NCBI RefSeq assembly: GCF_964213995.1
Contig: NC_135830.1
Span: forward strand, 17,112,001 to 17,176,000
DNA length: 64,000 nt
DNA from: Mustelus asterias
Taxonomy: Eukaryota
Reading direction: 5' to 3'
Both the position numbers and the translations under genes were made by a program. Below are positions 1 to 2,912 of the stretch, piece by piece (the stretch's first letter is position 1; each line of letters starts with the position of its first letter). The notes below the pieces were generated by a model. That model saw nothing but the letters and a program-made list of their open reading frames with translations. It had not been told where the DNA came from and made no database searches.

Positions 1-463
1 TGAAACTCCGTCCACAGTCAGTGCAGCTGAATGGCTTCTCCTCAATGTGAACTCGCTGGTGTGACAGTAAGTGGGATGACCCAGTGAATCCCTTCCCACA
101 GTCGGAGCAGGTGAACGGCCTCTCCCCAGAATGAACTCGCTGGTGTGACAGCAGGTGGAATGACTGAGTGAATCCCTTCCCACACACGGAGCAGATGAAT
201 GGTCTCTCCCCGGTGTGAGTGCGTTGGTGCACAGTGAGTGCTGAAGAATGCCTGAACCTCTTCCCACAGGAGGTGCAGGTGAATGGCTTTTCCTCAGTGT
301 GAATTCTCTGGTGAGACCAAAGGCCAGATGACTGAATGAATCCCTCTCCACAGACAGAACAGGTGAACGGTCTCTCACCAGTGTGACTGCGCCGATGGTT
401 TTCCAGCAGGGAAGGGTAACTGAATCCTTTCCCACAGTCCCCACATTTCCACGGTTTCTCCAT
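1..463 (-). CDS. C2H2 zinc-finger protein, partial (runs off the window start)
   Basis: The reverse complement from the ATG at 463 reads [33 protein letters not shown]..., followed by TGEKPF-linked fingers down to base 1. An acceptor-like ctccttttacag lies on - near 797-808. Confidence 0.85.
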
Positions 464-1399
464 GGTGCTGGTGTCCTTATGTTTCTCCAGGTTAAACGAT
501 CAGTTGAAGCCTCATCCACACACAGAACACGTGTACAGTTTTTCCTTGCTGTGAATGGTGTGATGTTTTTTAAGGCTGCGTAACTGGATAAAGCTCTTTC
601 CACAGTCAACTCACTGAAACACTCTCACTCGGGTGTGCGTGTATCTTGGTGCTTTTTCAGTCACACTGATGTTTGAAATCTTCTCCTCCAGACAGAAGAC
701 AAACATTTCTCCTTCCACATTCAAAGTCTGAGGATATTTAAGTCCAAGTGAATCGAGACTCTGTCTGATTTTGATGTGATGTTTCTTCACCTCACCTGTA
801 AAAGGAGTTTACAAAATTAATCACTGTCAGTCCAGGATAGAAATTTTGAACAGACAATTCTAATTCTCTGGAACATTTCTTCCTCTCTTGTTCCCCAAAT
901 CAATAAATTCCTGTCCCACAAATTCTCCCTCCTCCCTTGGCTTAAATCCAAACCCATCTCACCATTTCTTTTCTCCACTCCCAGTTTTCTCCCTCCCTCT
1001 CCTCTGTCTGGGTTCAGTTCTCCAGCTCCTGTCTGCAGACTGACAATAAAACCAATGGGTCTTATTGGGGGTGTTGGGGCCTCCAGCGGGTGTTTGTGAC
1101 TCCTTCCCGCCCACCTCCCAGGGTTTCCTTCCTTCCCAGAGATCAGAGTCCTCATTGATTTGAGGCCAAAGTGTAACCTCTTATTTATTGTCCCCCTCCC
1201 CCATCCTCTGATGTGAACCATCCTCCAGTGGCTGAGCCAGGATGGGGCCGTTAACCTGGGCCTGTTCCCGGGAGGGAGGGAGAAGCCCCGCAGCTGCAAA
1301 CCAGGGAGCTGACAATGATTCTGAAGGGTTTGCGGATCCACAAAGTGTTTCCAAATCCTCCCAGCCACCGCCTAACGCTGACTCCGCTTCTCCGGGACA

Positions 1400-1870: not shown

Positions 1871-1996
1871 ATGAGTGGGAGGCGCTTGTTCCCCAGTGTT
1901 CAGAATGGAGACAACTTGTCCATCAAACTGCATCAACCCTCTGAGTCCCAATGTCTTATTGATGAGGCAGAGCGGTGACAGAGATGGAAAGAAAGG

Positions 1997-2318
1997 CTCG
2001 GCCTTTTGGCTAAGATCAAGTGTAGTATGGATCGCCTGCACTTGGTTGAGGTCATTAGGTTACGCTGAGGCTTCATATGTTTCATATGAAGCAATTTTTA
2101 AAAGCGGCATCTCGGCCTTTTGGCTAAGATGCAAATGAGCTCAAGTCTTGGAGGAGGATCCTCCCCCTTCTCCAATCAGCTTGACTCATGTAGATCAGGC
2201 CCAGGACAGGGTGGTTTTGGTCTCCCGTCCTGTCTTGTCAGCCTGGATCTGAAATGTCTCAACTTGTTGAGACTCTGAATTGGATTTGATTTGATTGAAT
2301 TGGAAAAGTATTTAAAAA
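1997..2318 (+). mobile_element. U2 snRNA-headed structured retroposon (SINEU-like or non-autonomous Keno-like)
   Basis: 1997-2028 matches U2 nt 8-39 (CTCGGCCTTTTGGCTAAGATCAAGTGTAGTAT). A second U2 stem-loop I copy is at 2110-2130. A tail at 2314-2321; AAAGAAAGG direct repeats at 1988-1996 and 2319-2327. Confidence 0.8.
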
Positions 2319-2912
2319 AAAGAAAGGGAAATAAATCCTGTTTTCCAGATCCCACTACCTCATGGGACTTCTTGTGCCATGTGTCCAAAGATCTGCGGCT
2401 CAGTTGGCAGAAACTCACAACCCTGAGTCAACATCATCCTCGAATTGAGGGGCTGCTGACAATGACAACTGCCACCGTGCTGTAGGGAGCATGAGTTCAT
2501 AAGATATAGGAGCAGAATTAGGCCATTCGGCCCATCGAGTCCGCTCTGCCATTCAATCATGGCTGATATGCTCCTCATCCCCATTTTCCGACGAGCAACC
2601 ATCCTGAACCCAGTAACAGGAGGAGAAAACATGACGATTTTCTATCCTAGACTGTCAGTGATGGATTCGGCAAACTTTAGTTTGCCGATGGATTCGGCAA
2701 ACTAAAACAAGAGAAATGTTTGTCTCTTCATTTCTATCCTTGACTAATACTGTTGACTTTTGCAAAACTTTCACAGGAGCTTCGAAGAAGATTTGCAGAA
2801 GATTTGAAACAAGTATCACATAAAAATCATACATTGTCGCTTGATATTATCATCTTTGAGTGTGAACATTGAGCTCTATGTCATAACCACTCACTGTGTA
2901 AACTTTCTTCCC

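What the first reader, a model, noticed from the sequence alone, without database searches (positions are those of the whole stretch)
1988..2327. Retroposon with two U2 snRNA-derived segments: candidate shark snRNA-headed SINE family
Seen: 1997-2028 equals U2 nt 8-39, including the GTAGTA branch-pairing sequence, then switches abruptly to non-U2 sequence. A second U2 stem-loop I copy sits at 2110-2130. The unit ends in an A run and is flanked by a 9-bp direct repeat AAAGAAAGG (1988-1996, 2319-2327). Established: crocodilian SINEU elements have U1/U2 heads added recurrently and are linked to Tx1 mobilisation, and the Keno (Tx1 clade) and Utopia elements insert into U2 genes at about nt 37-38. 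Inference: this is an off-target copy of a non-autonomous element that normally sits in U2 genes at that site and is transcribed from the U2 promoter. The inner U2 piece would record an earlier round of head capture. I do not know of such a family in cartilaginous fish.
Basis: partly seen in the sequence, partly recalled or inferred. Interest (0 to 1): 0.88.

Follow-up and report, generated by a model that had tools for sequence, protein, structure and literature searches.

The report
Shark SINE borrows U2 gene promoters
A young, thousands-strong family of short jumping elements built from pieces of the U2 splicing RNA, in a genome that is likely a shark's, shares insertion sites with a U2-targeting LINE and has copies fused directly behind the upstream DNA of U2 genes, so it likely borrows the U2 promoter, which would answer an open question about how such elements are transcribed.

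Summary
Confirmed and extended. The 334-nt unit belongs to a dispersed, very young family (best 40 copies 99-100% identical; 2,057 first-look candidates; none in 400 kb of random sequence, so probably low thousands). At least 8 copies sit at the exact Keno site (A tail, then U2 nt 38/40 onward), several directly behind U2 upstream DNA; 6 duplication-flanked dispersed copies carry U2-locus flanks; 10 of 30 young copies start at U2 +1 and none extends upstream. A Keno-type Tx1 LINE with open ORF2 shares exact target duplications with SINE copies at two dispersed sites. The body is not foreign to U2: 2192-2301 matches an older sister family (B) that is a diverged U2. The RNA is predicted to be a chain of hairpins with variable loops. 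Best reading: a SINEU-like retroposon moved by Keno, likely transcribed from borrowed U2 promoters. Not shown: any transcript, or a master locus for the youngest subfamily; template jumps to U2 RNA also occur. No such family outside crocodilians turned up in my searches; Repbase/Dfam could not be checked. The scan had not noted this SINE before; it had noted a U2-headed Keno in another cartilaginous-fish genome.

The parts
1988..1996 (+). 5' target-site duplication (9 bp)
1997..2028 (+). head = U2 snRNA nt 8-39 (5'-truncated; full-length copies start at nt 1)
2029..2035 (+). variable loop that marks subfamilies
2036..2059 (+). strand predicted to pair with U2 nt about 11-36, refolding the head and hiding most of its branch-pairing region
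   Evidence: helix 2: 97.8% of cells paired
2069..2091 (+). predicted hairpin with length-variable loop
2107..2130 (+). inner U2 copy, nt 4-27, one substitution that closes a predicted stem; followed by an octamer match at 2129-2136
2134..2188 (+). predicted hairpin, likely a duplicate of the next one
   Evidence: z 6.3, 0/1000 in an old copy; z 1.8, 66/1000 in the window copy
2192..2301 (+). cryptic U2-derived block (two predicted hairpins, the second at 2256-2273 matching U2 stem-loop IIb, and the run-up to the Sm site), homologous to sister family B
   Evidence: family-B profile hits the window at E 2.5e-13 and U2 21-159 at E 4.5e-12; direct alignment to U2 is weak (z 2.4, 20/1000)
2314..2321 (+). 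short A tail, no AATAAA in front
2319..2327 (+). 3' target-site duplication

Best explanation
This is one dispersed copy of a young, non-coding retroposon family built from U2 snRNA pieces, likely copied by a Keno-type Tx1 LINE and likely transcribed from the promoters of the U2 genes into which some of its copies have inserted. Shown: the family, its duplications and A tails, copies at the Keno site (U2 38/40), copies fused as 'U2 upstream DNA + U2 1-39 + body', dispersed copies that carry U2-locus flanks, and exact site sharing with Keno. Inferred: Keno's endonuclease nicks at U2 nt 38 (and, loosely, at many Y|A sites elsewhere); because the head equals the target's nt 1-39, an on-target insertion either rebuilds 'promoter + full element' or leaves U2 1-(46 to 58) in front as an extra head; Pol II from the snRNA promoter then makes RNA that starts at U2 +1; most new copies land off target and are dead ends. 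The head would thus be a footprint of the target that secures an external promoter, not an internal promoter. The hairpins would stabilise the RNA and mask the U2 branch-pairing region (predicted).
For: Site: of 26 distinct 'X then U2 38-46 onward' junctions in the loci held, 16 are Keno-type, 8 this family, 2 other (the set was enriched for such junctions); the 8 come from different subfamilies. Fusions: C24-type upstream + head + variant body at one locus (1 of 40 scored), whose upstream has the snRNA PSE-like motif at -60 shared with U1 and U5 genes. Of 27 matches to the C21-type U2 spacer (26 of 26 candidates scored), 19 reach the gene-proximal end: 7 are followed by this SINE, 7 by Keno, 4 by whole U2, 1 by none. 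Transductions flanked by duplications of 10-18 bp: L102 (element + U2 38-191 + 46 nt of C24 flank, ending at the 3'-box-like motif), L103, L162, L165, L173, L175; none found for L105. 5' ends: 10 of 30 young copies, found with a head-free query, start at U2 +1, 13 of 30 at nt 1-3, and none of the 10 carries more than 2 nt of U2 upstream. Extra heads end at U2 46, 48, about 46-52 (SINE), about 48 (family B), 52, 54, 58 (Keno), the same range as in-gene duplications ending at 53, 55, 58. Partner: APE + RT + zf-RVT ORF2, ZCCHC3-type ORF1; 5 of 122 matches have the whole 1,144-aa frame open, the 4 dispersed ones keep LYMDD; at 2 of those 4 the LINE and two SINE copies share one duplication; 7 of 10 dispersed Keno copies gave duplications, all Y|A, like the SINE's (A at +1 in 27 of 31, G at -2 in 14 of 31).
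Against: No transcript was seen. No promoter-fused copy identical to the youngest subfamily was found: the nearest (C14, L103) is 98.9% in the body with a changed head. The C21-type upstream has only a second-best PSE-like match at -62 (6.2 against 10.2 at -50) and no octamer, and the one C24-type fusion is a variant without the inner U2 copy. In L103, L162 and L105 the SINE may have inserted after the U2 piece was retrocopied. Template jumps onto snRNA do occur here: a truncated Keno carries a U2 12-28 cap and another a U1 piece, so +1 starts could also arise that way. On-target copies are under 1% of candidates. No shared 3' tail with Keno beyond a short motif that old copies lack. Other L1/Tx1 families were not surveyed.
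Confidence: 0.7

Rival explanations
1. Same family and same Keno partner, but transcription comes from read-through (U2 arrays, Keno or host promoters) and the exact +1 ends are made when the reverse transcriptase jumps from the head onto abundant U2 snRNA, as Kojima 2015 proposed for crocodilian SINEU.
For: Copies with 30-153 nt or whole spacers of C21-type upstream show transcripts that began upstream; C21-type promoter signals are weak; snRNA caps on truncated Keno copies; the window copy lies beside a CpG-rich host promoter.
Against: Extra heads end only at U2 46-58, the duplication range, in 7 of the 7 double heads read, where jumps could end anywhere along 191 nt; L165 and L173 copy the arrangement seen in place at L103 and L211; read-through should leave many upstream-extended young copies, and 0 of 10 were.
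Confidence: 0.2
2. The element is moved mainly by another L1/Tx1 family with loose specificity; its presence at U2 nt 38 reflects occasional use of Keno nicks.
For: Over 99% of candidates are off target; no shared tail; dispersed Keno 3' ends are 98% alike on average while the best SINE copies are 99-100% (selected as best hits).
Against: Exact sharing of duplications with Keno at L337 and L340, in-head insertions at L231, the same Y|A sites with short A runs; Keno itself is mostly dispersed.
Confidence: 0.08
3. The copies are independent chimeric U2 retrocopies or a functional U2-like small RNA gene family rather than a SINE.
For: Strong predicted structure (z -8.45); loops vary more than stems (0.187 against 0.065).
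Against: Thousands of near-identical copies with a fixed rearranged body and subfamilies, duplications in 44 of 70 copies with heads, dispersed positions; the U2 Sm site is lost; selection on master RNAs explains the structure.
Confidence: 0.02

Closest known systems
SINEU-1/-2/-3 of crocodilians (Kojima 2015, PMC4494074; parts 1-4 of 5 of the text read; figures and supplements not available)
   Same: U2-derived head, A tail, under 500 nt, repeated addition of heads, tandem copies around one duplication, oligo-T runs, Tx1-type partner in the Keno cluster; family B resembles SINEU-3 (a rearranged U2 with its own 3' end).
   Different: That paper found none outside crocodilians; its target is Mariner-N4, its partner Tx1-Mar was inferred from shared targets, most families are old, and how they are transcribed was left open (still 'not yet demonstrated' in PMC5786205, passages). 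Here copies sit in U2 genes at the Keno site, behind U2 upstream DNA, the family is very young, and exact duplications are shared with the LINE. Homology to crocodilian SINEU could not be tested.
Keno (Tx1 clade, U2-targeting LINE) and Utopia (PMC4640811: passages and section 6; the 2004 Keno paper was not read)
   Same: Same 3' junction at U2 nt 38/39; relaxed specificity as in reptile Utopia.
   Different: The element is non-coding and is not an internally deleted Keno: BLASTN finds only the U2 head in common. No non-autonomous rider of Keno came up in my searches.
R2 in 28S rDNA and its co-transcription with the target (as cited in PMC4494074; otherwise recalled)
   Same: Works like it: an element without its own promoter that relies on the target gene's transcription.
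   Different: Pol II snRNA promoter rather than Pol I; insertion 38 nt from the start, so the target's 5' end becomes the element's head; no ribozyme looked for.
U6/L1 and other snRNA chimeric retrocopies (as cited in PMC4494074)
   Same: snRNA piece at the 5' end of a retroposed unit.
   Different: Those are one-off products; this is a replicating family with subfamilies.

Membership tests
SINEU (snRNA-headed SINEs) | 5' head from U1 or U2 snRNA | tested here: met
   U2 1-39 in full copies, 8-39 here
SINEU (snRNA-headed SINEs) | short (under 500 nt), non-coding, A tail | tested here: met
   306-341 nt, A tails; no ORF scan of the body was run, length alone excludes an RT
SINEU (snRNA-headed SINEs) | a replicating unit with shared structure, not independent chimeras | tested here: met
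   2,057 candidates, subfamilies, duplications
SINEU (snRNA-headed SINEs) | repeated 5' addition of snRNA pieces | tested here: met
   double heads L182, L165, L173, L278; inner copy
SINEU (snRNA-headed SINEs) | moved by a Tx1-clade LINE | tested here: inconclusive
   shared sites and duplications with a Keno-type LINE; inferred, no assay and no RT tree with named Tx1 families
crocodilian SINEU-1/2/3 families | sequence homology of the body; preference for Mariner-N4 | not testable with these tools
   sequences not available; flanks read here show U2 genes, other SINEs and unique DNA, but Mariner-N4 could not be compared
classical Pol III SINE | internal Pol III promoter from tRNA, 5S or 7SL | tested here: not met
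   Rfam finds only U2; T runs of 4-5 in head and body; no A/B box scan was run
non-autonomous Keno derivative | 5' and 3' ends taken from the LINE | tested here: not met
   only the U2 head is shared; 3' likeness limited to a short motif in young copies
Keno (for the partner LINE) | APE-type endonuclease and insertion before U2 nt 38/39 | tested here: met
Keno (for the partner LINE) | RT groups with named Keno families | not tested
   homologue search gave unnamed amphibian proteins at 44-47%; no named Keno sequence in hand

The most novel reading that the evidence does not exclude
An active vertebrate SINE lineage whose head is the footprint of its target: it rides Keno into U2 genes at nt 38, thereby installs itself behind the U2 Pol II promoter, and each on-target round can add a new U2 head, so that the whole element (families A and B) has been built from nested U2 pieces. 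This would give a general mechanism for the birth and transcription of snRNA-headed SINEs, independent of or ancestral to the crocodilian ones.
Probability: 0.6. Interest if true: 0.82.

Novelty: new variant of a known kind. Interest (0 to 1): 0.72.

Why it matters
snRNA genes have external promoters, so how SINEU elements are transcribed was left open in 2015 and 2018. This genome offers named loci where the element is fused to U2 upstream DNA, a young family, and a partner LINE with an open ORF2, so the question can be tested directly with 5' RACE, ChIP and a trans-mobilisation assay. It would also be the first snRNA-headed SINE outside crocodilians in the papers I could search, a set of young presence/absence markers, and a small structured RNA that a U2-targeting LINE delivers to a fixed site.

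Tried and rejected
Rfam at gathering score: nothing in the window; the snoRNA/miRNA hits are below cut-off and taken as chance. Candidate counts of RNA-family searches are not used as copy numbers: U5 gave 154,886. Random sampling: 0 copies of family A in 40 stretches of 10 kb; no near-complete family B copy there either. Direct alignment of the whole body to U2 is not significant (z 0.8; old copy z 0.1); only the route through family B is. Covariation is modest: 96% of cells paired and score above 500 of 500 shuffles, but only 6 of 111 pairs change on both sides (25/500), further pair types are not above shuffles (361/500), and the structure came from one of the sequences. Family B duplications are mostly eroded (3 of 25 with 8 bp or more) and no B copy was found in the U2 loci held. 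An extra G from a cap at 5' junctions was looked for by eye and not seen. The open ORF2 in the C21 array has a changed YMDD motif. No Utopia-like element was seen at U2 junctions held, but none was searched for. Literature: 7 searches (listings and abstract starts) and passages of PMC4758252, PMC5499810, PMC7245038, PMC5786205, PMC5381603 showed no snRNA-headed SINE in cartilaginous fish; Repbase, Dfam and subscription papers are not covered, and supplements of PMC4494074 could not be seen, which bears on homology with SINEU.

Full report
Observation. The coordinates hold. Window 1997-2028 is U2 nt 8-39 of this genome's own U2 genes, 2107-2130 is U2 4-27 with one change, the unit ends in a short A run and is flanked by a 9-bp repeat.

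The family. A head-free query gave 2,057 first-look candidates; all 40 scored are 99-100% identical, and 5 further matches are tandem neighbours at 93-97%. Forty random 10-kb stretches held none, which puts the copy number below about 28,000 and probably in the low thousands. Among 75 distinct copies held, identity to the young form runs down to 73%, with subfamilies marked by the loop behind the head. 44 of 70 copies with a head have a flanking repeat of 7 bp or more. Six of the 30 loci hold copies of different subfamilies in tandem around one repeated duplication, and a seventh has an inverted neighbour, far above what the density gives; Kojima saw the same for SINEU-3.

Anatomy. The RNA is predicted to fold into a chain of hairpins (z -8.45, 0 of 100 shuffles; z -3.8 to -9.6 in 9 copies). 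In 32 aligned copies hairpin loops vary three times as much as stems (0.187 against 0.065, p 3e-9); covariation proper is modest. The first stem pairs the U2 head with the body; by eye, the partner LINE's 5' end does the same to its own U2 head. A second family, B (2,074 candidates, 88-91% alike), is a U2 1-34 head followed by a diverged U2 21-159 and a short own tail (profile against U2, E 4.5e-12); the same profile hits window 2192-2301 (E 2.5e-13). So the 3' third of the element descends from U2 too, cut off just before the Sm site, and the hairpin in front of it is likely a duplicate. Direct alignment to U2 alone is weak, so this step rests on family B.

Where it sits. U2 genes lie in arrays on C24 (1.8-kb and 8-kb units) and, as a variant, on C21 (450-bp unit). 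Both hold a two-ORF LINE with APE, RT and zf-RVT domains whose tail is followed by U2 38-191: the Keno/Utopia junction described in PMC4640811. Of 26 distinct such junctions in my loci, 16 are Keno-type, 8 are this SINE and 2 other (enriched). At C24:43.06 Mb the order is U2 upstream, U2 1-39, variant body, truncated Keno, U2 38-55, second SINE, U2 38-191. The C21-type spacer occurs at 27 places (26 of 26 candidates scored); of 19 that reach the gene, 7 lead into this SINE, 7 into Keno, 4 into whole U2. The C24-type upstream has a PSE-like motif at -60 shared with U1 and U5 genes; the C21-type has only a weaker match at -62 and no octamer.

Where copies come from. Six dispersed units bounded by 10-18-bp duplications carry U2-locus DNA: one has U2 38-191 and 46 nt of C24 flank behind the tail, five have 36 nt to a whole spacer of C21 upstream in front. 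In two of the six, and in a seventh unit with no duplication found, the SINE may have entered after the U2 piece was copied. Ten of 30 young copies start at U2 +1 and none of these has upstream DNA. Extra heads end at U2 46-58 in all 7 double heads read (3 SINE, 1 family B, 3 Keno), which is where in-gene duplications end (53, 55, 58); one such arrangement lies in place behind a C21 spacer. Against this, a truncated Keno has a U2 12-28 cap and another a U1 piece, so template jumps occur too, and the inner copy ends at nt 27.

The partner. Keno-type copies are themselves mostly dispersed (913 candidates; 122 RT matches), 5 with the whole ORF2 frame open; the 4 dispersed ones keep the catalytic motifs and one is full length with a U2 head. 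At 2 of these 4, the LINE and two SINE copies share one duplication; in one of them the SINE copies are headless, so reuse of a site does not need the head. Both elements use Y|A sites with short A runs and a faint likeness to the U2 site. There is no real shared tail.

Mechanism. Shown: family, sites, fusions, transductions, site sharing. Inferred: Keno moves it; on-target insertion supplies a U2 promoter and sometimes a new head; off-target copies like this one are mostly dead ends. Not shown: a transcript, and a master of the youngest subfamily (the nearest fused copy is 98.9% with a changed head); the arrays may be incompletely assembled. Family real: 0.99; Keno as partner: about 0.88; U2 promoter as main source: about 0.7.

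Comparison. It meets the tested marks of the SINEU class but homology to the crocodilian families could not be tested; it is not a Pol III SINE and not a deleted Keno. PMC4494074 (parts 1-4 of 5 read) found SINEU only in crocodilians and left transcription open; seven searches and passages of five other papers showed no such family in cartilaginous fish; Repbase and Dfam were out of reach, so an existing entry is possible. Earlier scan notes (unchecked) describe a U2-headed Keno in another cartilaginous fish and a spliced-leader analogue; none describes this SINE. Verdict: new variant of a known kind, interest 0.72.

Noticed in passing
L192:2822-3030 (G000 C24:43.079 Mb); L276-L300: Family B: an older U2-derived SINE (head + diverged U2 21-159 + own tail), 2,074 first-look candidates, SINEU-3-like, likely ancestral to the 3' part of the window's element; one copy is double-headed (L278), one follows a Keno-like end (L293).
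   Followed up: partly
L061 (G000 C24:44.81-44.94 Mb): A homogenised 8,035-bp tandem unit holding a whole U2 gene plus a double-headed Keno copy broken by another SINE, repeated about 15 times.
   Followed up: partly
L194-L198 (G000 C21:28.04-28.09 Mb): A second, variant U2 array (about 90% to the main type, 450-bp unit) riddled with Keno; weak PSE, no octamer, distant 3'-box-like motif, so read-through may be common.
   Followed up: partly
window 2129-2136: Exact octamer motif, as in the U1 distal elements, kept in 30 or so of 32 aligned copies but inside a predicted stem end; could be chance or aid a downstream tandem copy.
   Followed up: no
L003, L017, L173: Three copies inserted at the same position of an abundant tRNA-type SINE (family name recalled, not checked), with only a 1-2-bp duplication.
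   Followed up: no
L231:2400-3100 (minus strand): One SINE copy inserted at nt 38 of another copy's head, and a Keno end in front of a cut head: heads can act as targets.
   Followed up: partly
L064:5650-5720: An old Keno derivative with a U1 5' piece in front of its U2 head and a large internal deletion, repeated in L065 and L204: possibly a non-autonomous Keno.
   Followed up: no
window 1-800 (minus) and 1400-1900: A C2H2 zinc-finger exon and a CpG-rich promoter with CCAAT and GC boxes; the element lies a few hundred bases from it.
   Followed up: no
   Followed up: no
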